A stretch of 64,000 bases of DNA from Oligoflexia bacterium (GTDB taxonomy: Bacteria; Bdellovibrionota_C; UBA2361; JAFLCA01), in assembly GCA_019694465.1 (NCBI GenBank), contig JAIBBV010000005.1, positions 13,767 through 77,766 on the forward strand, written 5' to 3'. Below the pieces are notes generated by a model. It saw nothing but the letters and a program-made list of their open reading frames with translations. It did no database searches and was not told the DNA's origin. The first letter of the stretch is position 1. Each line of letters starts with the position of its first letter. Position numbers and translations under genes: made by a program. Below are positions 50,544 through 60,945 of the stretch, in pieces.

Positions 50544-52223
50544 CTAGAGCGATGCCGTGCGATTATCAACTGGCGCAGCTAAGCCTGCCAGCATGCGGCG
50601 TCTCAACTCATCAAAGCCATCCCGCGTGCGCGCTGATATGGCGACAGCCCCAAGGCGCTCAGCTAGCGACTGCCATTCGCTAGCCGGCACTGCATCGATT
50701 TTATTTAGAACTACGATCAGATTGCGATCTCCCAAATTCATCTCTTGAAGAGTCGCATCAACTGATGACTTCTTGGTCAGTACATCTGGATCTGAGGCAT
50801 CCAAAACATGCACAAGCACACTGGCCTCATAGAGCTCCTCAAGCGTGGCGCGGAAAGCGCTACGCAGTTCCTGAGGTAAGTCTCGAATAAATCCCACCGT
50901 GTCACTCAATATAGCTGGGACCATATCTGGCGCACGGTCGCTATAGCAGCGTTGCAGCATTATGCGGCGTTGCGCCGGATCAAGCGTTGCGAAGAGCTTA
51001 TCTTCAGCTAACACGTTGCTTTGCGTGAGCGCATTGAACAAAGTACTTTTCCCGACGTTAGTGTAGCCAAGTATTGAAATCTGTGGAATTCCCTGGGCCT
51101 GTCGCTTTTGGCGCCTAAGTCCGCGCTGACCACTAAGTGCATCGATTCGCTTTTCCAAATCAACGATTCGATCGCGAATGCGTCTGCGGCCAATCTCTAA
51201 CTTTGTCTCGCCCGGCCCACGGCCACCAATACCACCGGTTAATCGTGATAGCCCTGTATCTTTCTCAACCAAGCGCGGGAGATTATATTTTAGTTGCGCC
51301 AGTTCTACCTGCAATCTTCCCTCACTACTACTAGCGCGCTGCGCGAATATATCCAAAATTAACATACTGCGGTCTATAACTTTGAGCTCGGTAAGATTAG
51401 TAATAACTCTCCACTGTCCGGGTTTTAGCTCAGCATCAAAAATTAGGAGATCCGCGCCCAGCGCGAGGCAACGCAGAACAACCTGCTCAAGCTTCCCCTT
51501 TCCTAGCAAAGTGCGCGGGTCAGGAGTTCTGCGCTGGATAATTGTTTCAACCACGCTAACTCCAGCTGTGCGTGCTAGCTCTTTAAGTTCAGTCATTGAA
51601 CTCTGCGCGTCGCGCGTATTGCGATCGTATACTCCGATTAGAACCGCGCTGGTGCCATCCACCTTGACGCTGGATTCCTGCGCAGCCTGCAGTTCATCCT
51701 CCAGCTCGGACATAAAAGTGGAATAGTCTAGATCTAGTCTACCCAGATCTTGCACAACTTCAGTTCGTGTCATTGGCGCCACATCGAGACCTGGAGGCAC
51801 AATGTAAGCGTAGGCTATTTGTGTGGCATTGCCGAGTACCCGCACAGCGACTACTGAATCCAACCTCAATTTCTGAAGATCCGTATATATATCGGCTGGA
51901 ATATGCGGCTCGTCATAGGCCGTAGATAAATCGCTAAAAATGAGTCGCAAACGTCGCAAGCGCCCGCGCCCGTAGCGGTATCGACCAAGGTCTGGAAGGT
52001 AAAGAATCTCTCGTGAGCCGACGAAGACTTCTTCAACTCGCCCTTCACGAGACACCAATACTCCTATTCGGCGCTTGATGGCCTGAGCAACTTTAAAAAC
52101 CTCGCGCGCTACGTCCAGAGGCACAATTTCCTCAGCTCCGAAACGGCGCACAAATAGCTTTTCTACGCTGCGCAGCTGCGATGGTGCCAGACCCTTAGTA
52201 TTGCCCCTAACAACCTGAGACAT
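50544..52223 (-). CDS. hflX: GTPase HflX (long form)
   Basis: LILDIFAQRA, GGIGGRGPGETKLE, GYTNVGKST, LFATLDP, DTVGFI, NKID; N-terminal extension of about 190 aa. Confidence 0.96.
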   Translation of the reverse strand: MSQVVRGNTKGLAPSQLRSVEKLFVRRFGAEEIVPLDVAREVFKVAQAIKRRIGVLVSREGRVEEVFVGSREILYLPDLGRYRYGRGRLRRLRLIFSDLSTAYDEPHIPADIYTDLQKLRLDSVVAVRVLGNATQIAYAYIVPPGLDVAPMTRTEVVQDLGRLDLDYSTFMSELEDELQAAQESSVKVDGTSAVLIGVYDRNTRDAQSSMTELKELARTAGVSVVETIIQRRTPDPRTLLGKGKLEQVVLRCLALGADLLIFDAELKPGQWRVITNLTELKVIDRSMLILDIFAQRASSSEGRLQVELAQLKYNLPRLVEKDTGLSRLTGGIGGRGPGETKLEIGRRRIRDRIVDLEKRIDALSGQRGLRRQKRQAQGIPQISILGYTNVGKSTLFNALTQSNVLAEDKLFATLDPAQRRIMLQRCYSDRAPDMVPAILSDTVGFIRDLPQELRSAFRATLEELYEASVLVHVLDASDPDVLTKKSSVDATLQEMNLGDRNLIVVLNKIDAVPASEWQSLAERLGAVAISARTRDGFDELRRRMLAGLAAPVDNRTASL

Positions 52224-52405
52224 AGACCTCTTGAACGATCATTCTAATATTAGCAATAAAAACACTCGCCAACTACCTGAACCTCTTCAACGTGTTAGCG
52301 CATTGCGCTGCTCTGCTGCAGACAGTGACGCACTGCCCAGCTTTCTTTGATTTCCAGAGGCATTTACTATATCACGCGCAGGGTAAATTAACAGGAGACT
52401 GGCAA

Positions 52406-53386
52406 ATGGGGTTACGTATAAAGGCTTTGAATGTCGATAACGCTCTGGAAGTACGAGCGTTGATTGGCTTATTTGATAGGGCTGCTGCATGCGGCACTAA
52501 TGCATACCCTGCTGTATTGAATGAGGAGTTCTGGCAAACGCGCGTCCCACGTCAGTTAACTAGCATTGTTGCGCTTGAAAAGAATGTGGTACGGGCGCAT
52601 CTAGCGCTTAGCGTAGAAGAGTTGGATGGGCATGTGCTTTTTGCTGTCAGTGACCCGCAAGTCGAGAATGGTGCGGACCTGTTGGCGCAGATGTGGCAAG
52701 TTCTAAGAAACAGCCCACGCATGACTAACCTGCGTAGCCTTACAATCACCATTCCTCAAGGCAGCCCAGCAGTTGAGGAATTTGCAAAGCTGACATTAGG
52801 AGCACGCCTATCCTGTCTGTTACCCTCTCACACGCCAGGGGCGGCTGACAGCGGTGCAACTATTCTGGGAACCTGCAGTCAACATGAAAGACTACCGGAC
52901 ACGCTTAAGCTTAGAATTCCAACGCGCTATAGACCATTTGCAACGCAACTTTTTGCTGAATTTGGAATTTTAGCGACTTTCCTTGATATAGCCGGGGCAC
53001 CACGTGCAGTGTCGGCAGATGCCCAGAGTGTGGTGCGTTATGCCTATCGAGATATTGGCGCCGAACATCTTTTCATTGAGCCTTCCCTGCTTAACGGTTG
53101 GCGCGAGCTCAAATTAGATCCTGATTTGCGCAGCTATCTCTTTATAGATGCACGCGACCCAAAATGCGCAGACATGTGTGATGCGGCAGAAGAGCATGGC
53201 TATGTATTTTCAGGCTTCTTACCACTTGTGTTTGGAAGAACCTCTATAGTTTTTAGCCCCGCGCCGCTCGTGCCAGTATCGGCGATTGCCTTTGATGACG
53301 ATCGAATTCAGGAGTTAGCTGAGAACATGTCTGGAGAACAACTGCGTCCGGCACGTCAGGCTGTTGCTAACGCTGGTCGAAGGTAG
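52406..53386 (+). CDS. Hypothetical protein, divergent GNAT-fold-like
   Basis: AGGAG SD before ATG 52406; YPAVLNEEF...TSIVALEKNVVRAHLAL and C-terminal LFIDARDP...AEEHGYVFSGFLP resemble tandem GNAT-like proteins (from memory). Confidence 0.55.
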   Translation: MGLRIKALNVDNALEVRALIGLFDRAAACGTNAYPAVLNEEFWQTRVPRQLTSIVALEKNVVRAHLALSVEELDGHVLFAVSDPQVENGADLLAQMWQVLRNSPRMTNLRSLTITIPQGSPAVEEFAKLTLGARLSCLLPSHTPGAADSGATILGTCSQHERLPDTLKLRIPTRYRPFATQLFAEFGILATFLDIAGAPRAVSADAQSVVRYAYRDIGAEHLFIEPSLLNGWRELKLDPDLRSYLFIDARDPKCADMCDAAEEHGYVFSGFLPLVFGRTSIVFSPAPLVPVSAIAFDDDRIQELAENMSGEQLRPARQAVANAGRR

Positions 53387-53746
53387 TACTCGCGATCACC
53401 AGAACTACTGCCCCAGTAAACAACCTAAAGTGGCTGCACTTAGAGTTTAAGCCCGCAACACAATTGCTCTACTTAAACTTATCTGGCTGGTATTGCGAGT
53501 GAAGCGACGTAATTCGCTTCAGTTGGTTGTGTGCTCTTAAATACCTGTGAGAGTTTGCCCTTGCCCGAGGTTAATTTCGCGTGCACTCTTGGGTCAGTTG
53601 ATATGCCATTGAGGAGCACCCAGCTATTTTAATTCTATGCCGATTGCCCAAATGAAATAAAAGGCACGCGAACTAGGCTAAGAGGCCACGAGAGATGAGA
53701 GAGGAACGAGGTAGTCTTCCAGGAGTAGTCATAGCTTTGGGGCTAC

Positions 53747-55468
53747 ATGTCTAATAGCGCCAAGACCATCTTAGGTTTTTTGTTGTTGCTGACACTGGTT
53801 GGGTTTTCCTACCGCGACCACTTCGCAAATGGTTTTTATTTTGACGATACACATACTATCCAAAACAACCTAGCCATCCGTTCACTAGACAATGTAGCCA
53901 GTTTTTTCACCGATCCGCGCACATCTAGCGCGCTTCCACCCAATCAAAGCTTTCGGCCCTTAGTGACACTTTCACTAGCACTCGACTACGCAGCGACCGG
54001 TGGGCTGAATCCACAAGCGTTTCACGCTTCAACTTTCATAGTTTACCTGCTACTTCTCGCATTTTTTTACCTACTAGCTCGTAGAATAATTGAGCACAGC
54101 GCAAGCGAATTACCATCCCATGAGATAGCTCTAGCAGCCTCAGCGTTATACGGACTACACACAGCCAACGCTGAGACGATTAACTATATCATCGCACGCT
54201 CGGATGTTTTATCTACATTTTTTGTCGTGATTGCTGTTTATGCCTTCACAAGTCCTAGCCTTAGACGCTGGCAAATTTATCTAATTCCAGCTGTACTGGG
54301 CATGCTAAGCAAGGAGGCGGCGCTAGTTTGTGGGGGACTGCTAGCAGCCTATACATACTTGATCGAGCCTCCGTTCTCGTCGGCTTTAATTGACACTCGT
54401 GGGATCCTGCGCGCTTCACTCAGAGCCATGCCAGCACTGCTTTGTGCCGTAGTGATCTTCTCTATCAATAAGCACCTAGCCACATCTTGGGTTCCAGGAG
54501 GAAATTCCAGCTTGCTGTATTTGGCCACGCAGCCCTGGGTCATCTGCCACTATCTGCTTAGCTTTTTCGCACCACTGTGGCTTAACGCTGATACTGATTG
54601 GACGGTGGTCAGCTATGTGATGAACTGGCGCACCCTACTAGGCTCAGTTGTGCTGATTACATTAATTCTTGCAGGGCTAAAGTGCCGCCTATCCCCAAAA
54701 TGGCGCCCAGTCGGCTTTGGGTTGGCTTGGTTCTTGATTGCCCTAGTGCCTAGCTCCAGCGTTGTTCCACTTTCGGAGGTTTTGAACGACCATCGCACAT
54801 TTTTCCCCTACCTCGGCCTGTCACTCGCCATATGCTGTGCGTGCGTGAACTTAGCCACACCAATCAAGTTACGGAACAAACCTTTTATCGTACTGGCGCT
54901 GGCCGGTATTTTTTTGGGACACAGCTTAGGAGTTCAAGCACGGACTAAAGTTTGGTCATCCGACTACTCACTGTGGCTAGATGTCACACAAAAAAGCCCC
55001 AACAACGGACGCGGGCTAATGAACTTTGGACTAACCCTGATGTCACAGGGGGATCTCGTTGGGGCAAAGAAATATTTCGAACGCACCGCACAGTTACTGC
55101 CTAATTACCCTTACGTATATATCAACTTAGCAGTGCTTAATGGAAACTCCGGTAACGATCGTGAAGCTGAGTCGCAATTCCTGCATGCTAAAGCTTTGGC
55201 ACCTGGCCTACCCGAGGCCTATTTTTACTATGCGCGCTTTCTTTTTTTGCGTTCTAGATTGCAGGAGTCAGAGACACTTCTGCGCCAATGCATAGATCTT
55301 AGCCCTTCCTATCTCTACCCGCGACAGCTTCTATTGGCGCTCTTAGAGAAACAATCGCGCTGGGAAGAATTAAAGCGATCGGCACAGGAAATTCTACTTT
55401 TGGATTCGCAGGACAGCACTGCCCTGTGGTATCTTAAGCTGGCTACCCAGCGCACAGCATCCAGTTAA
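53747..55468 (+). CDS. TMTC-like GT-C membrane glycosyltransferase with C-terminal TPRs
   Basis: FYFDDTHTIQNN, FRPLVTLSLALD, HTANAETINYIIARSDVL, SKEAA, about 11 TM segments, NDHRTFFP, then TPR repeats. Confidence 0.82.
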   Translation: MSNSAKTILGFLLLLTLVGFSYRDHFANGFYFDDTHTIQNNLAIRSLDNVASFFTDPRTSSALPPNQSFRPLVTLSLALDYAATGGLNPQAFHASTFIVYLLLLAFFYLLARRIIEHSASELPSHEIALAASALYGLHTANAETINYIIARSDVLSTFFVVIAVYAFTSPSLRRWQIYLIPAVLGMLSKEAALVCGGLLAAYTYLIEPPFSSALIDTRGILRASLRAMPALLCAVVIFSINKHLATSWVPGGNSSLLYLATQPWVICHYLLSFFAPLWLNADTDWTVVSYVMNWRTLLGSVVLITLILAGLKCRLSPKWRPVGFGLAWFLIALVPSSSVVPLSEVLNDHRTFFPYLGLSLAICCACVNLATPIKLRNKPFIVLALAGIFLGHSLGVQARTKVWSSDYSLWLDVTQKSPNNGRGLMNFGLTLMSQGDLVGAKKYFERTAQLLPNYPYVYINLAVLNGNSGNDREAESQFLHAKALAPGLPEAYFYYARFLFLRSRLQESETLLRQCIDLSPSYLYPRQLLLALLEKQSRWEELKRSAQEILLLDSQDSTALWYLKLATQRTASS

Positions 55469-55492: not shown

Positions 55493-56884
55493 CTATAACT
55501 TATGCGCGACCTCTGCCGCATCTACGATATTCTTGGCAATTTCGGGGTTTGATCCAAAATGCAAGAAGGAGAATGTGTTAACAACCTGCGGCTCCGGACT
55601 ATACCCCTCATGCACTCCCGCGCTGGTAGAGCCAGAAAATCGCAAGGCCCGCACCATACGTTCCTCAGAACCGAGCTTCCATTCATGCGTATTAATGCCT
55701 TTTACGATTAGACCAGCACGCCCTAAGATCGACTCTTCCACGGTGACGGCATCTGCGTAGGCCCATGGACTTCGACTTGCAGTGGCAGGACTAGGGATAA
55801 CTCCAACACCTTCATAGGTGTCACCAGCTTGTGTCCTAAATGTTCGGGCGACGTAGGCACTACCAGCCCCCTCCGTGTAGAGAACTCCGCCAGCGGCCAC
55901 AAAGTCACTGATCGAATTCTTCATGGAACTATTTTGGGCCAAGGCCGAGCCATATTCTTCCAAGTAACAGCCTCCGATATAAACAGCTCCCACTTTCTGC
56001 GGCAGTCGATCATCGGCCAACGGAGAAAACGGCACCACTTCAGCCCCATAGTAACGCAGCCAATCGAGGTTGTCCTGGAACATTAGGCCAAAGCAACTAT
56101 CATCGGCGACCGCAATCCTGGTGCGACGCCCCTGTGGTCGATGTTCATAGTCGGTAATGCGAATACCTAAGGCTTGGCGTCCACGGTCGATTAAGCTCTC
56201 AACATCGACATGCTGCTGCACCAGGCCTCCCAGCTCAATGAGGAACTGACGCCCTAATGAAGAGCGGCTCTCTGCTTGCAGTGCATAAATCTCGGGTAGA
56301 GCCGTTACTGTCGTAAGCGGTGGAACCGCGCCCAAGATTGCCGGAAGCGCTGCAGCTTGAAAGGCAGCTTCGAAAAACTCCCGACTGGCTGTACCATCCA
56401 ATCCCTCGCTAAACCTAGATAATAGAACTGAGCTGACCTCAAAGTCGCTTGCAAAGTCACGGTATCCACGCACTAGGGCGGCTAAGCTAGCTCCAAAGCC
56501 CTTGGGGTCGACCACCAATACTACCGGAGTATGGATATTAGCAGCCAATTCTGCAGCGGAGCCGCGCTGCGAGCTTGCAGTGTATCCGTCGTATAGTCCA
56601 CCTGCACTACCGTCGATAAGGATAAAATCGGCACCGACACTGCTTTGATAGGCGGTAATCAGTGTCTGGCCCGGGGCTAGAAGACGATCATCGAAACAGC
56701 GCGCCGTTCTTCCTACGAGCCGCTTATAAATCAGCGCCTGCCCCAAATTTGGCCCGACAACCGCACATGAGACACCTAGCCCGCGTCGCCTTAGCTCAGC
56801 GGCCAAACCTATGCCCAATAAGCTGGCCCCAACCCCACGATGGGTACCTGAAACTATTAAACGAGCTGCGGTCAAATTTTCCAT
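55493..56884 (-). CDS. Cobyrinate a,c-diamide synthase (CbiA/CobB)-like protein with degenerate catalytic motifs
   Basis: Full-length CbiA layout (GLAAELRRRGL, VGP, GLYDG, GSAAELA, PVVLVVD, RIAVADD, FQDNLDWL, FSPLADDRLP, LHF), but Walker A GKT is GAS and the glutaminase ECGG is EGAG. Confidence 0.8.
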   Translation of the reverse strand: MENLTAARLIVSGTHRGVGASLLGIGLAAELRRRGLGVSCAVVGPNLGQALIYKRLVGRTARCFDDRLLAPGQTLITAYQSSVGADFILIDGSAGGLYDGYTASSQRGSAAELAANIHTPVVLVVDPKGFGASLAALVRGYRDFASDFEVSSVLLSRFSEGLDGTASREFFEAAFQAAALPAILGAVPPLTTVTALPEIYALQAESRSSLGRQFLIELGGLVQQHVDVESLIDRGRQALGIRITDYEHRPQGRRTRIAVADDSCFGLMFQDNLDWLRYYGAEVVPFSPLADDRLPQKVGAVYIGGCYLEEYGSALAQNSSMKNSISDFVAAGGVLYTEGAGSAYVARTFRTQAGDTYEGVGVIPSPATASRSPWAYADAVTVEESILGRAGLIVKGINTHEWKLGSEERMVRALRFSGSTSAGVHEGYSPEPQVVNTFSFLHFGSNPEIAKNIVDAAEVAHKL

Positions 56885-57117: not shown

Positions 57118-58284
57118 TTACTTGCGTCGAAGCACTAGTACGCGGTTGCGTTGGCGCAATTTTTTCGGGTCACGCTCGCCCAGACACTCCTTAAGCTGGG
57201 CGCTCTTCTCCTGCGCGACGAATGAACCCTCAGCCTCCCAGAACTGCCTCAAATTTTCTTCAACGTAATCTTTCAGCAGCTGATCCAGATCAACATCCTG
57301 CGCACCAACCTTAACTGAACGCAAAATTAATGCTACCCGTCCCCCTCGCGCAACAACACGCGCCCACTCACACAAAGCCTCGTTCATGAAATCCAGCCAT
57401 GACTCGACTGTAGCGTGCGCCGGACCACGCGCGGGAACGACTCCTTGAATCCCGGAGAACCACATTCTCAGCCACAGGTCCTCAACGTGATTTGGCTCAG
57501 CGGGCAACGGGGGAGCGGTCAGAACGAGCCCTACCCCGGGACGTCCAATATATGACAGGTTACGAGAATCGCTAACCGCAAAACGGCCGCGCTCGACGTT
57601 ACTGCGCATAACTGACGGAAGGCCGTCTCTCAGAACAGATGCGGTACGCCGCAATATGCGTGGAACAATAGCGCGGTAATCAGGCACTTGATTGCGCTTA
57701 CGATTCAGCTCCTTCTGCAGCTCAGGTCGCAACGAAATTTGAGGAAAACTATACGCAGAAAAGAATCCAGCACTAGGACCATGCAAAAGTCCTGAAGCTG
57801 TTAATTCAATGAAGCGCGTAACTGGCGAAGGCTGGGTGTGCAAAAACTCCCGCAGGTTAACCAACTCACGAAAGGTGTTGATATCATAGAATGGACTGAA
57901 GAAATTTGAAAAAACTTTTATATCAATTGGCTTACGCACATTAAGTGACTGCAGAGTCAGTGTTACTTCCGTCAAATCTGATGGAGCACACTTGGCCTCG
58001 GCTACACGAACGAAGTAAGGGTTAGTATCACTCGCGTAGGGCACGCGACCGCGCAAAGCAGCCTCTAGTGGAGTGGCACCAGCCCCACAGAAAGGATCAA
58101 GCACAACTTCTCCCTTCTTAGAAAACCGCTCGATGCAGTATTGAGCAATCTTGGCCGGGCAACCTTCCATCAGGGCGATCGAATAGTGTAGCGAATGATC
58201 ATCGCCCTCGGACAATTCCGAATCAGTTAATTCGCGCCGGTAAAACGGCACAGTCTCAACTAGTTGAAGAGCGCTTCGACTCAC
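57118..58284 (-). CDS. Orphan N4/N6 DNA-methylase-like protein with degenerate motif IV
   Basis: Motif I VLDPFCGAGATPLEA, SDTNP; motif IV position reads LVLTAPPL rather than TSPPY/F; WLRMWFSG; RVVARGG. Confidence 0.72.
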   Translation of the reverse strand: MSRSALQLVETVPFYRRELTDSELSEGDDHSLHYSIALMEGCPAKIAQYCIERFSKKGEVVLDPFCGAGATPLEAALRGRVPYASDTNPYFVRVAEAKCAPSDLTEVTLTLQSLNVRKPIDIKVFSNFFSPFYDINTFRELVNLREFLHTQPSPVTRFIELTASGLLHGPSAGFFSAYSFPQISLRPELQKELNRKRNQVPDYRAIVPRILRRTASVLRDGLPSVMRSNVERGRFAVSDSRNLSYIGRPGVGLVLTAPPLPAEPNHVEDLWLRMWFSGIQGVVPARGPAHATVESWLDFMNEALCEWARVVARGGRVALILRSVKVGAQDVDLDQLLKDYVEENLRQFWEAEGSFVAQEKSAQLKECLGERDPKKLRQRNRVLVLRRK

Positions 58285-58574: not shown

Positions 58575-59714
58575 TTAGCGCGAGAACTCATTAACGTTTT
58601 TCTGAGCAACTTCAAGTGAAGGATCAAGACGGGCGGCTGATTTAAACTCGCGTGCCGCATCCTCTGTTCTTCCTAGGCGCTGATACAGCACTCCTAGGTT
58701 ATTATGAGCGGAGGCGTTGGTTGCATCTAGCTCAAGTGACTGCTGCAACGATGACTCACATTCTTTGTACTTTCCCAGCTCAAGTTGAGCCCAACCTAAA
58801 ACGCTATAAGCCCAGGCGTTCTTCGAATCGAGAGCGACAGCCTTCTTCAATACCTCTTCAGCCAAACTCTCCTGCTTCTTTGAGATCAAGACGACCCCTA
58901 GATTTACGTGCGTTACGGCGCTGTTGGGATCAAGCTGCAAGGCCTTGCGCAAAGCAACTTCAGCCTTATCAAGATCTCCTAGCTTTTGATAAACTACGCC
59001 AATTGCTTGCTGCGCCTCAGAATGATCCGGCTTAATCTGTAAAAGCTTTGCGAGCGTACGTGCCGACTCTTCGAAGCGCCCAGCCCTTTGGTAGCCAAGT
59101 CCTGCAAAGAACAAGGCCTCCGCATTACCTGGTTCCAGCTGAATGGCTCTCTCGTATGAGCGCAGTCCAAGTTCTAGCTGGCCTTGACGCTCATACATCA
59201 CGCCCATGTTGTAGTGCGTCATGGCGTTGGCATCGTCTATCGCGCGAGCCTTCACCAGGGTGGCCAAAGCTTCCGCCACATCGCCCTTACGCTCTTGCAC
59301 CAAACTAAGCCCCTGCAGCGCCAATACAGAACGGGCGTCAAGCTCTAATGCCTTAAGAAACGCAGCTTTCGAATCATCAAGTTTGCCAAGTTCCAATTGA
59401 GTCCTGCCAATCGCCACAAAAAAGGCTGGATCTTGCTTGAGCGCCCCAGCCTTCTGAAACAGCCCCAAGGCCTCTTCTGCCTTGCCCCTCTTACTAAGGA
59501 CAACCCCAAGATTGTGGTATGCCTCGGCCATGGAAGGGCAAGCTTCAATTGCTTGACGATAAAGCGACTCCTCCTCACCAGAGCCATTGCCTAGTGCTAC
59601 GCCTTGCTTAACTAGCTTTCCTGCACCGACACAGTCCTGCTCAGCTAGCGCCGGCATAGTAAGCAACACCAAGCAACTTGTTACCAGCAAACTTAGCCAA
59701 ACTAATTTGTTCAT
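58575..59714 (-). CDS. Secreted tetratricopeptide repeat protein
   Basis: GAGG SD, signal peptide ALA-E, about 9 canonical TPRs (AYHNLG, THYNMG, AHNNLG). Confidence 0.9.
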   Translation of the reverse strand: MNKLVWLSLLVTSCLVLLTMPALAEQDCVGAGKLVKQGVALGNGSGEEESLYRQAIEACPSMAEAYHNLGVVLSKRGKAEEALGLFQKAGALKQDPAFFVAIGRTQLELGKLDDSKAAFLKALELDARSVLALQGLSLVQERKGDVAEALATLVKARAIDDANAMTHYNMGVMYERQGQLELGLRSYERAIQLEPGNAEALFFAGLGYQRAGRFEESARTLAKLLQIKPDHSEAQQAIGVVYQKLGDLDKAEVALRKALQLDPNSAVTHVNLGVVLISKKQESLAEEVLKKAVALDSKNAWAYSVLGWAQLELGKYKECESSLQQSLELDATNASAHNNLGVLYQRLGRTEDAAREFKSAARLDPSLEVAQKNVNEFSR

Positions 59715-59742
59715 AACTAACCTCTCAGTCGAGACTCTACGC

Positions 59743-60945
59743 CTATGGCACACCCTTCGACCATTCTTCTATGGCTTGAACGACCTCTCGCAGCTCGGGC
59801 TCCGGCGCGACCATGGCCAAACGTACGTGGCGCTCAAAGCCAGACCCAAAAATTTGTCCAGGCATCATCAATACTCCCTTGCGCTGCATGAGAGACGAGC
59901 AAAATTCACTGGCACAGCATTTGTGTTGCCTGGGCAATTCAGCCCAAACGCTACAACCTGCCTCTGGCATACGTACCGTGAAGCCAAGAGACTTAAGACC
60001 TCGCGTTACTAAGGCAGCACGATGATTGTATTGCTCGCGAGCAGACTTGACCAGATCCTCCTGACAATCTAACGCATAGCTCGCTGCAATCTGCAGTGGC
60101 AAAAATGTACCATAGTCCATGTGGCTCTTAATTCTAGCAATGCGCCCTACTATTTCTGCGCTGCCTAGAACTGCTCCGATCCTCCAGCCCGGGACTGAAT
60201 AGGCTTTCGAAAGTGAATATATCTCTAGGCCTCGCTCCCGCAAGACTGGCTCACTTAGCATGCTTACGGCTGAAGTACCCGTAAAACTTAACTCACCATA
60301 GACAAAATCGTTTAGCACCAGAGCATCGTACTGCGCAGCAAGCTCCCCCACGCTACGCCAGAAGTTTCGACCAACACACAGGCCCGTTGGATTATTGGGA
60401 AAGTTAAGTACTACGACCTTAGCACGCTCGGAATCCATACGGTCGTTCAAAGCAGCAAGGGTGTCACCCTCACTATCACCGATACGGAAGGTGCTTACAT
60501 TCAACCCGCAAAGCCTGGCAGCCGCACGATGTGCGGAATAGAGCGGTTCAGGCATAAGAACTGTCGCACCCGGCTCAGCACAGGCCGAGAGCGCCAAAAT
60601 CAGTCCATCTTTCGCGCCTAAAGTGGCACATATGCGCGTCTCAGGATCAACTTCCACACCGAACTTGGCGCGATACTTTTCCGCAAACGCTTCACGCAAG
60701 CGCCTTACACCACGCGCTACGGAGTAGCGATGGTTACGCGGCTTCAAGGAAGCTTCCACGAGGCGATCGAGCAGTGCTCGCGCTGGGCTTATGTCGGGAT
60801 TTATCATTGATAGGTCGACTATACGCTGTCCAGCCAGCTCGGCTCTGCGACGTGCCGCGTGCAAGTCAGCCAAGGCTTCCTCATCAACCCAAGCATGCTG
60901 TCCATTCAACCTGTTCCCTATATCCGTCACGGATACTTCCCTCAT
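59743..60945 (-). CDS. Class I/II PLP aminotransferase, AlaC-like
   Basis: DLSMINPD, LNFPNNPTG, DFVY, PLP lysine SLSKAYSVPGWRIG, MDYGTFLPLQIA. Confidence 0.88.
   Translation of the reverse strand: MREVSVTDIGNRLNGQHAWVDEEALADLHAARRRAELAGQRIVDLSMINPDISPARALLDRLVEASLKPRNHRYSVARGVRRLREAFAEKYRAKFGVEVDPETRICATLGAKDGLILALSACAEPGATVLMPEPLYSAHRAAARLCGLNVSTFRIGDSEGDTLAALNDRMDSERAKVVVLNFPNNPTGLCVGRNFWRSVGELAAQYDALVLNDFVYGELSFTGTSAVSMLSEPVLRERGLEIYSLSKAYSVPGWRIGAVLGSAEIVGRIARIKSHMDYGTFLPLQIAASYALDCQEDLVKSAREQYNHRAALVTRGLKSLGFTVRMPEAGCSVWAELPRQHKCCASEFCSSLMQRKGVLMMPGQIFGSGFERHVRLAMVAPEPELREVVQAIEEWSKGVP

What the first reader, a model, noticed from the sequence alone, without database searches (positions are those of the whole stretch)
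55493..56884. Intact CbiA/CobB homologue with both active sites apparently lost
Seen versus canonical motifs: P-loop SGTHRGVGASL (canonical SGxGKTT); VVGPNLGQ (KxGPDYID); LPEIYAL (LPERHLGL); YTEGAG (YAECGG, catalytic Cys missing); no HEFH. The ORF is full length, and no other cob/cbi gene or B12 riboswitch was recognised in the window. Knowledge: CbiA needs ATP and a Cys-dependent glutaminase; CfbB is the F430 paralogue. Inference: a pseudoenzyme kept for tetrapyrrole binding or sensing, or another non-catalytic role.
Basis: partly seen in the sequence, partly recalled or inferred. Interest (0 to 1): 0.6.

Follow-up and report, generated by a model that had tools for sequence, protein, structure and literature searches.

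The report
Dead CbiA-like protein, conserved clade
This intact gene encodes a relative of the vitamin-B12 amidating enzyme CbiA/CobB that has lost its catalytic and substrate-binding residues; it belongs to a selected but dispensable family confined to an uncultured Bdellovibrio-like phylum that makes no B12, so it is a repurposed dead enzyme of unknown role.

Summary
The ORF lies on the minus strand (55493-56884, 463 aa) and every quoted motif is there.

- **Homology:** it is a true CbiA/CobB homologue but scores below all curated cut-offs. It folds confidently (pLDDT 95) into the expected two domains, dethiobiotin-synthetase-like and glutamine amidotransferase.
- **Not decaying:** it belongs to a monophyletic clade (support 1.0) with about 95 representative clusters in public data. 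In a 103-member sample, none keeps the glutaminase Cys or the first His of GHEFH.
- **Erosion of other sites:** thirty-five positions that are near-invariant in working CbiA are erased. The Walker-A lysine survives in 78 of 103 sampled members but was lost at least seven times, including in this protein's own clade.
- **Selection:** purifying (omega 0.06-0.10 in close pairs).
- **No corrin pathway:** none in this genome. Across the phylum's 124 species, CobQ is found in none, while the dead copy is found in 72.
- **Context:** the gene sits in an ancient string, methyltransferase-like gene, dead CbiA, then HflX. It has also been cleanly deleted many times.

It is therefore a non-catalytic, accessory protein. 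The suggested tetrapyrrole-binding role is not supported. This scan had already found the family in another genome.

The parts
55493..56884 (-). CbiA/CobB-like pseudoenzyme (CbiAL), 463 aa, protein P0001
   Evidence: ORF and translation. NCBIfam CobB 221.9 bits against a cut-off of 254. Pfam GATase_3 52.8 bits against 27. AF2 pLDDT 95.1. Fold matches: dethiobiotin synthetase Z 16.7, GatD Z 17.0, PurQ Z 17.7.
56816..56851 (-). Degenerate Walker A loop, SGTHRGVGASLL (Lys replaced by Ala20)
   Evidence: Canonical sequences read GxGKT(T/S) in 78 of 79. Lys is kept in 78 of 103 dead-clade members and is lost in the query's clade.
56738..56761 (-). Former substrate/Mg motif, VVGPNLGQ in place of K-x-G-P-D-[YF]-[IL]-D
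   Evidence: The Lys and both Asp are 100% conserved in canonical sequences and occur in 10% or fewer of the dead clade.
56279..56299 (-). Former P-E-R-H-L-G-L motif, now LPEIYAL
   Evidence: Arg, Leu and Gly are 100% and His 96% conserved in canonical sequences; the positions are unconserved in the dead clade.
55862..55879 (-). Former nucleophile elbow, YTEGAG (Cys replaced by Gly339)
   Evidence: Cys occurs in 78 of 79 canonical sequences and 0 of 103 dead ones (98 Gly, 5 Ala).
55679..55699 (-). Former G-H-E-F-H site, now GINTHEW; Trp402 is a dead-clade-specific conserved residue
   Evidence: The first His occurs in 78 of 79 canonical and 0 of 103 dead sequences. Trp402 occurs in 92% of dead and 0% of canonical sequences.
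57118..58284 (-). Upstream co-directional methyltransferase-like gene (MTL), 388 aa, conserved partner by position
   Evidence: Pfam and NCBIfam match only motif I. AF2 pLDDT 88.7; best folds are Trm11 and Dam. Motif IV is degenerate (APPLP, SPPIP, CPEQP). MTL lies directly upstream of CbiAL in 19 of the 20 other fetched loci of the order and at 9 of the 12 CbiAL loci fetched from the most divergent genomes. Present in 115 of 124 genomes.
50544..52223 (-). HflX GTPase with a ~190-aa N-terminal extension; usually the gene directly downstream of CbiAL, here separated by two inserted opposite-strand genes
   Evidence: TIGR03156 418 bits. HflX lies directly after CbiAL, co-directional, in 10 of the 20 other order loci and downstream on the same strand in 18 of 20; it also follows CbiAL at 7 of the 9 distant MTL-CbiAL loci.
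58575..60945 (-). TPR protein and class I/II aminotransferase, upstream members of the order-wide syntenic block

Best explanation
P0001 is a catalytically dead paralogue of cobyrinate/hydrogenobyrinate a,c-diamide synthase. An ancestor of this Bdellovibrio-like phylum inactivated a CbiA-type gene: the Cys became Gly, the first His became hydrophobic, and the substrate-binding Lys, Asp-x-x-Asp and Arg-His motifs were lost. The two-domain fold was kept under purifying selection while the corrin pathway is absent. The ATP site has since eroded piecemeal, and in the query's own clade the Walker lysine is gone too. This protein therefore cannot hydrolyse glutamine and very probably cannot use ATP. 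What is shown: it is not a B12 enzyme, not a pseudogene, and it is dispensable. What is inferred: it acts non-catalytically as an accessory binding or scaffold protein. The likeliest partners are the products of the gene string it has occupied since the deepest splits sampled in the phylum, namely the degenerate Trm11/Dam-like methyltransferase upstream and the ribosome GTPase HflX downstream. My estimates: about 0.95 that it is dead for CbiA chemistry, about 0.6 for the whole statement, and only about 0.25 that the partner is MTL or HflX.
For: Homology is real but sub-threshold. The fold is confident and has the expected two domains. The dead clade is monophyletic with support 1.0, on a long stem, and evolves about three times faster than its canonical sister sequence. 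Cys and the first His are absent in 103 of 103 members. Thirty-five canonical near-invariant positions are erased and only seven clade-specific conserved positions are gained. The Walker Lys changed at least seven times by parsimony, and the Mg-binding Glu position is variable even where Lys is kept. An exhaustive profile search finds about 95 dead representative clusters, roughly half without Lys. Omega is 0.10 and 0.056 in two close pairs. The query's dN against its same-genus relative (0.45) is similar to that of CoaE (0.52) and the aminotransferase (0.56) next door. The dead copy is present in 72 of 124 species, while CobQ is in 0 of 124 and SUMT passes its cut-off in 6 of 124. The own genome has no CobQ, CbiB, SUMT, PF00590 or ALAD hit, but does have a B12 riboswitch before a TonB receptor and five B12-binding domains. 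The order MTL, CbiAL, HflX is kept even where CbiAL identity to the query is only 27-36%.
Against: No direct evidence of any interaction. MTL is present in 115 of 124 genomes and HflX is retained at all four deletion loci examined, so neither needs CbiAL. One family (f19) has CbiAL in one genome and no MTL in any of its three. CbiAL was cleanly deleted many times, including in 13 of 36 species of one genus. The whole surrounding block is syntenic, so adjacency may be inertia. Intergenic gaps upstream of CbiAL vary from 5 to 240 nt (233 nt here, with no clear promoter or terminator). No fused form was found. Most family members keep GxGKS, so nucleotide binding may matter for the family even though it is lost here.
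Confidence: 0.6

Rival explanations
1. Tetrapyrrole or corrinoid binder, sensor or chaperone: the dead enzyme keeps the substrate pocket to hold imported B12 or haem.
For: The organism uses and imports B12: a riboswitch before a TonB-dependent receptor and five B12-binding domains. Some scaffold residues near the old pocket are shared with canonical CbiA (Asp65, Gly92, Asp99).
Against: All canonical substrate-contact motifs are lost and the replacing residues are not conserved within the clade. The gene is not linked to the riboswitch or to any B12 gene. It has been lost repeatedly within one genus; whether those species still use B12 was not tested.
Confidence: 0.1
2. Still an enzyme with different chemistry: an ATP-dependent, ammonia-using or otherwise re-specified ligase in the lysine-bearing majority. 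Alternatively, a relocated nucleophile: Cys264 of the DDSCF motif is conserved in 83% of the clade, and this protein also has His400.
For: 78 of 103 members keep GxGK[ST] and Asp99. Cys264 replaces an Ala that is invariant in canonical sequences, at the edge of the first strand of the amidotransferase domain. Omega is low.
Against: The lysine was lost at least seven times without gene loss. The acidic Mg ligand is replaced by hydrophobic residues in several lysine-bearing members. The distant orders lack both the lysine and Cys264. His400 occurs in only two sequences. The query has neither the lysine nor the substrate motifs.
Confidence: 0.12
3. A non-catalytic protein whose function has nothing to do with its neighbours; the MTL-CbiAL-HflX order is only inherited synteny.
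For: The whole block (SCP2, aminotransferase, TPR, MTL, CbiAL, HflX, CoaE) is syntenic across the order. MTL and HflX persist without CbiAL. Two copies (L149, L150) sit away from MTL.
Against: The three-gene order survives across the deepest splits sampled, where the other neighbours have changed.
Confidence: 0.3
4. A decaying pseudogene or an annotation artefact.
For: The catalytic motifs are lost, the clade evolves about three times faster than its canonical sister sequence, and the gene is dispensable in many lineages.
Against: The frame is full-length and open here and in over 70 genomes, with no internal stops. Omega is 0.06-0.10. The AF2 model is very confident. Where the gene is lost it is deleted cleanly and does not linger as a wreck.
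Confidence: 0.02

Closest known systems
CbiA/CobB, cobyrinate or hydrogenobyrinate a,c-diamide synthase (NCBIfam NF002204, TIGR00379)
   Same: Full-length homology (E 1e-65, residues 8-442). Same two-domain architecture: a dethiobiotin-synthetase-like N-domain and a GATase_3 C-domain. About 48 structural-core positions are shared.
   Different: Scores below the curated cut-offs. It has no Walker Lys, no PDxxD, no PERHLGL, no Cys and no first His. There is no corrin pathway in the genome or the phylum. It sits in a separate clade on a long branch.
CfbB, Ni-sirohydrochlorin a,c-diamide synthase of coenzyme F430 synthesis (NF033195)
   Same: Same family and fold. According to PMC7242693, CfbB uses glutamine and ATP like CobB.
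   Different: 169 bits against a cut-off of 560. The host is a bacterium with no SUMT hit. The catalytic residues are absent.
N-terminal dethiobiotin-synthetase-like domain of phosphate acetyltransferase Pta (PDB 7t85)
   Same: It is the best sequence-profile match in the PDB to the dead clade. It is also a DTBS-type P-loop domain whose loop lacks the lysine (GTSVGLTS). From my own knowledge, this Pta domain is regulatory and structural, not catalytic, which gives a precedent for the reading offered here.
   Different: The match is weak (E 0.004) and covers only the N-domain. Pta has no amidotransferase domain, and its regulatory role was not tested here.
GatD of the MurT/GatD lipid II amidotransferase (PDB 6gs2, 5n9m)
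   Same: The closest solved GATase_3-type domain (Z 17.0, 200 residues aligned). GatD works only in complex with a partner protein.
   Different: From my own knowledge, GatD keeps a catalytic Cys and His. Here both are gone, and no MurT-like partner is nearby.
Other dead CbiA-like families noted earlier in this scan (Planctomycetes, Thermoleophilia, Synergistota) and the same family in another genome
   Same: The same kind of event: full-length CbiA/CobB homologues that have lost their catalytic motifs and are kept under selection (unchecked notes). Note e1-945623 shares sequence words with this protein.
   Different: I could not compare the sequences of the other phyla's families. Whether they share one origin with this clade or arose independently is open.

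Membership tests
CbiA/CobB a,c-diamide synthase (NF002204 / TIGR00379) | Score above the curated whole-protein cut-off | tested here: not met
   221.9 against 254 bits; 200.9 against 261.4 bits.
CbiA/CobB a,c-diamide synthase (NF002204 / TIGR00379) | Walker A GxGK[TS] of the ATP-dependent synthetase domain | tested here: not met
   The query reads GVGASL. Lys occurs in 78 of 79 canonical sequences.
CbiA/CobB a,c-diamide synthase (NF002204 / TIGR00379) | Synthetase-site motifs K-x-G-P-D-x-x-D and P-E-R-H-L-G-L | tested here: not met
   The query reads VVGPNLGQ and LPEIYAL. The canonical residues are 96-100% conserved.
CbiA/CobB a,c-diamide synthase (NF002204 / TIGR00379) | Glutaminase nucleophile Cys in A-E-C-G-G | tested here: not met
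   The query reads TEGAG. Cys occurs in 0 of 103 clade members and 78 of 79 canonical sequences.
CbiA/CobB a,c-diamide synthase (NF002204 / TIGR00379) | Glutaminase His in G-H-E-F-H | tested here: not met
   The query reads GINTHEW. The first His occurs in 0 of 103 clade members and 78 of 79 canonical sequences.
CbiA/CobB a,c-diamide synthase (NF002204 / TIGR00379) | Two-domain fold: dethiobiotin-synthetase-like domain plus class I amidotransferase domain | tested here: met
   pLDDT 95.1. Residues 6-231 match 1a82 with Z 16.7; residues 252-463 match 6gs2 with Z 17.0.
CbiA/CobB a,c-diamide synthase (NF002204 / TIGR00379) | Occurs alongside the corrin pathway (CobQ, CbiB, precorrin methylases) | tested here: not met
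   None in the own genome, which is 86% complete. CobQ is in 0 of 124 genomes of the phylum.
CfbB (NF033195) | Score above cut-off and a methanogen F430 context | tested here: not met
   169.3 against 560 bits. The context is bacterial housekeeping genes.
Pfam GATase_3 (PF07685) domain family | Score above the gathering threshold | tested here: met
   52.8 against 27 bits, residues 256-444.
Phylum-restricted dead CbiA-like clade (unnamed) | Falls inside the monophyletic clade that lacks Cys and the first His and carries Gly339, Ala343 and Trp402 | tested here: met
   Clade support 1.0 with the query nested inside it. The query has Gly339, Ala343 and Trp402.
Phylum-restricted dead CbiA-like clade (unnamed) | Position directly downstream of the MTL gene | tested here: met
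   Window order is MTL 57118-58284(-) then CbiAL 55493-56884(-). The same adjacency holds in 19 of the 20 other order loci and at 9 of the 12 CbiAL loci fetched from the most divergent genomes.

The most novel reading that the evidence does not exclude
The degenerate Trm11/Dam-like methyltransferase, the dead CbiA and the extended HflX form one ancient ribosome-associated module. In it, the dead amidotransferase serves as an adaptor or regulatory subunit, for example using its reshaped former glutamine pocket (Gly339, Ala343, Trp402) to dock a partner or sense a metabolite. That would make it the first assigned function for a pseudo-CbiA.
Probability: 0.12. Interest if true: 0.7.

Novelty: new variant of a known kind. 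Interest (0 to 1): 0.42.

Why it matters
**Annotation.** Several sources name members of this family 'cobyrinic acid a,c-diamide synthase'. Metabolic reconstructions could therefore wrongly credit these uncultured bacteria with a B12-pathway step. CobQ is absent from the whole phylum, and SUMT from nearly all of it.

**Evolution.** The family is a clear case of stepwise enzyme death. The glutaminase site and the substrate pocket were lost once, at the root of the clade. The ATP site is still being lost independently in many branches. Throughout, the fold stays under selection. That makes the lysine-bearing and lysine-less orthologues a natural paired experiment for asking what a pseudo-CbiA does.

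**Wider pattern.** Earlier notes of this scan report dead CbiA-like families in three other phyla. If those notes hold, the CbiA scaffold is exapted recurrently.

Tried and rejected
- **Searches that added nothing.** Sequence search of the PDB with the single protein gave no hit. The ESM Atlas only returned CbiA-type clusters. The 'longer' search found only canonical CbiA fusions and no fusion of the dead family. Literature searches for a pseudo-CbiA found nothing.
- **Local signals.** The promoter and terminator scan around the gene was uninformative.
- **dN/dS.** For the query against its nearest genomic relatives, dS was saturated. I used closer pairs within the family and compared dN with neighbouring genes.
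- **Pseudogene reading.** Rejected: the frame is open, omega is low and the model is confident.
- **DsrN- or CfbB-type alternative amidase.** Considered from memory and rejected, because the catalytic residues needed for any glutamine- and ATP-dependent amidation are absent and SUMT was not found.
- **HflX extension.** I checked whether the N-terminal extension of HflX tracks the presence of CbiAL. It does not.
- **Not possible.** Residue distances could not be measured because model coordinates are not exposed.

Full report
**1. The observation.** The interval 55493-56884 holds one uninterrupted ORF on the minus strand (463 aa, ATG start). All quoted motifs are present:
- SGTHRGVGASL at residues 13-23
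- VVGPNLGQ at 42-49
- LPEIYAL at 196-202
- YTEGAG at 336-341
- GINTHEW at 396-402, where canonical enzymes read GHEFH[YW]S

Profile searches confirm full-length homology to CobB/CbiA, but below every curated threshold:
- NF002204: 221.9 bits against a cut-off of 254
- TIGR00379: 200.9 against 261.4
- CfbB: 169.3 against 560

Only the Pfam GATase_3 domain passes its threshold; the two P-loop families do not.

**2. Fold.** An AlphaFold2 model built on 90 family sequences is very confident (mean pLDDT 95.1, pTM 0.93). Residues 3-239 superpose on dethiobiotin synthetase (1a82, Z 16.7, 193 residues, rmsd 3.2). Residues 252-463 superpose on class I glutamine amidotransferases (PurQ 3d54 Z 17.7, GatD 6gs2 Z 17.0). 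Foldseek also ranks CTP synthase, GatD and dethiobiotin synthetase highest. No solved CbiA or CobB appeared among the matches listed. The scaffold is intact; only the chemistry is missing.

**3. It is a family, not a private decay.**
- The protein database returns about 110 clusters at 35-76% identity before the first canonical CbiA appears.
- I built a maximum-likelihood tree (FastTree, LG+gamma) of 182 sequences: 90 family members, 12 distant members taken from genomes of the same phylum, one unclassified MAG, and 79 canonical CbiA from many phyla. The dead sequences form one clade of 103 tips with support 1.0.
- The clade sits on a stem of 0.58 substitutions per site. Its tips lie about three times further from the shared node than its one canonical sister sequence (2.30 against 0.73).
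- Within the clade, the Cys position is Gly in 98 and Ala in 5. The first His of GHEFH is always hydrophobic or Thr. In canonical sequences each of these residues occurs in 78 of 79.
- Thirty-five positions that are at least 85% conserved in canonical CbiA are held by under 20% of the dead clade, and mostly by nothing in particular. Fifteen of these are invariant in canonical sequences, including Lys42, Asp46, Asp49, Met95, Arg199, Leu201 and Gly202.
- Only seven positions are newly conserved: Gly299, Gly333, Gly339, Ala343, Gly359, Trp402 and Ser429. Several cluster in the former glutaminase motifs.
- An exhaustive HMM search of 1.84 billion cluster representatives finds about 95 dead representatives before canonical sequences take over.

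**4. The ATP site is dying piecemeal.**
- The Walker lysine survives in 78 of 103 members (typically GVGKSL). By parsimony it changed at least seven times.
- It is absent from all 13 members of the basal sub-clade from other orders (GVGVST, GVGTST and similar).
- It is absent from the query's own clade of seven (P0001-P0005, P0007 and relatives) and from several scattered singletons.
- Among 50%-identity representatives, about half lack it.
- The acidic residue equivalent to the Mg-binding Glu of the 'EG' strand is replaced by Val, Phe, His, Ala or Thr in several members that still have the lysine.

So ATP chemistry is not what selection maintains, and the query is among the most eroded members. 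The query's His400 aligns with the second His of GHEFH, which is less conserved (Arg in 4 of 79 canonical sequences). Only its closest relative shares this His.

**5. Selection.** Nei-Gojobori estimates on two close pairs give omega 0.10 (dS 0.84) and 0.056 (dS 1.87). These fall within the range of the flanking genes, 0.015-0.15. For the query against its same-genus relative, dS is saturated. Its dN of 0.45 is no higher than that of neighbouring housekeeping genes (TPR 0.41, CoaE 0.52, aminotransferase 0.56). None of the more than 70 genomic matches has an internal stop.

**6. No corrin pathway.**

| Search | Own genome (3.39 Mb, 86% complete) | Phylum (124 species genomes) |
|---|---|---|
| Second CbiA-like locus | none | single dead copy per genome in those examined |
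| CobQ | none | 0 of 124 |
| SUMT | none | 6 of 124 above cut-off |
| CbiB | none | not searched |
| PF00590 tetrapyrrole-type methylase | none | not searched |
| Porphobilinogen synthase | none | not searched |
| Dead CbiA | present | 72 of 124 |

- The own genome does have a cobalamin riboswitch directly upstream of a TonB-dependent receptor gene, and five B12-binding domains. It therefore imports and uses B12.
- Every phylum copy whose motifs I examined is dead.
- The family therefore works independently of corrin synthesis.
- NCBI record titles for member genomes read 'Bdellovibrionota', 'Deltaproteobacteria' or 'Bdellovibrionales' bacterium MAGs.

**7. Gene context.**
- Of the 20 other loci fetched from the query's order, most show the order SCP2-like, aminotransferase, TPR, methyltransferase-like (MTL), CbiAL, HflX. 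MTL lies directly upstream of CbiAL in 19 of 20. HflX lies directly after CbiAL in 10 and downstream on the same strand in 18.
- In the window, two opposite-strand genes are inserted between CbiAL and HflX.
- The core order MTL, CbiAL, HflX also holds in the most divergent genomes of the phylum, where CbiAL is only 27-36% identical to the query and the other neighbours differ. Of the 12 CbiAL loci fetched there, 9 have MTL directly upstream, and 7 of those 9 also have HflX downstream.
- MTL has a Rossmann methyltransferase fold with a helical insertion. Its best structural matches are Trm11 and Dam (TM 0.34-0.41). It keeps a DPFCGxG-type motif I, but its motif IV is degenerate (APPLP here; SPPIP or CPEQP elsewhere). 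It may itself be catalytically compromised.
- MTL occurs in 115 of 124 genomes, so it does not need CbiAL.
- In four genomes that lack CbiAL, MTL abuts HflX with only 11-197 nt between them and no tblastn remnant of CbiAL.
- CbiAL is missing from whole families, and from 13 of 36 species of one genus. It is therefore accessory and repeatedly deleted.
- No fusion of the dead family to any other domain was found.
- The N-terminal extension of HflX is present whether or not CbiAL is.

**8. Mechanism.**

What is shown:
- The protein cannot perform the glutamine- and ATP-dependent amidation that defines CbiA, CobB and CfbB (requirement for both substrates: PMC7242693).
- It is not a pseudogene.
- It is not tied to corrin synthesis.
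- It is dispensable.

What is inferred:
- It acts without catalysis, through binding.
- The old substrate pocket is not conserved, which argues against a retained tetrapyrrole ligand.
- The few clade-specific conserved residues lie in the former glutaminase motifs, so any conserved binding surface is more likely there.
- The only positional clue to a partner is the ancient MTL-CbiAL-HflX string. I give that link about one chance in four.

One structural precedent exists for a lysine-less dethiobiotin-synthetase-type domain. The N-terminal domain of phosphate acetyltransferase is the best PDB profile match to this clade (7t85, E 0.004). That this Pta domain is regulatory is my own recollection and was not tested here.

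**9. Novelty and prior notes.** I found no paper describing a catalytically dead CbiA. This scan has already reported the same family from another genome (e1-945623). It has also reported dead CbiA-like families in Planctomycetes, Thermoleophilia and Synergistota. Those notes are unchecked, except that I re-derived the claims of e1-945623 independently on this genome.

This report adds:
- The finding that the ATP site is not uniformly dead across the family
- The tree showing one origin with at least seven lysine losses
- The deeply conserved MTL-CbiAL-HflX order
- The clean recurrent deletions
- Absence of CobQ from all 124 genomes of the phylum, with SUMT above cut-off in only 6

**10. Verdict.** The pseudoenzyme reading is supported and the tetrapyrrole-binding reading is not. 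This is a new variant of a known kind, a pseudoenzyme branch of the CbiA family. Interest is moderate, because its function remains unknown and the scan already knew the family.

Noticed in passing
window 57118-58284 (-): The methyltransferase-like neighbour (MTL) is near-universal in the phylum (115 of 124 genomes). It has a Trm11/Dam-like fold with a helical insertion. It keeps motif I, but motif IV is degenerate (APPLP, SPPIP or CPEQP in place of [DNS]PP[YFW]), so it may be a second eroded enzyme next to the dead CbiA.
   Followed up: partly
window 50544-52223 (-): HflX carries a ~190-aa N-terminal extension with no Pfam match. The extension is conserved across the phylum (proteins of 545-610 aa) and is present whether or not the dead CbiA is.
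   Followed up: partly
own genome G000 (whole): There are no PF00590 hits at all, not even the usually universal RsmI-type methylase, and no porphobilinogen synthase, in an 86%-complete MAG. This suggests the organism makes no tetrapyrroles and may be a haem as well as a B12 auxotroph.
   Followed up: no
L053 (G000 contig C32:2295-2509, minus strand): The genome's single cobalamin riboswitch (67 bits) sits directly upstream of a TonB-dependent receptor gene (Plug plus beta-barrel domains), presumably a BtuB-type B12 importer.
   Followed up: partly
window 52292-55468 (+): Two opposite-strand genes are inserted between the dead CbiA and HflX: a 364-aa ORF with no family match and a 573-aa TPR protein. 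Both are shared only with the closest relative G060; the 364-aa ORF family also lies in this gap in some other genomes.
   Followed up: no
L137 (Methanomassiliicoccales MAG); proteins P0215, P0231, P0228, P0244: These are other CbiA-family variants outside this clade. L137 and P0231 lack only the Cys (SEGGG, AEGAG) but keep GxGK, PDxxD and GHE[FY]H. P0215 has Asp in place of Cys. P0228 and P0244 lack all motifs and look like a separate dead lineage.
   Followed up: no
L066 (MAG 'bacterium isolate Co_bin.267'): This unclassified MAG carries a dead-clade member (NAGTST, AEGNA) that groups with the basal sub-clade.
   Followed up: no
window 30211-30284 (-): A tRNA gene is the only Rfam match in the window at gathering threshold.
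   Followed up: no
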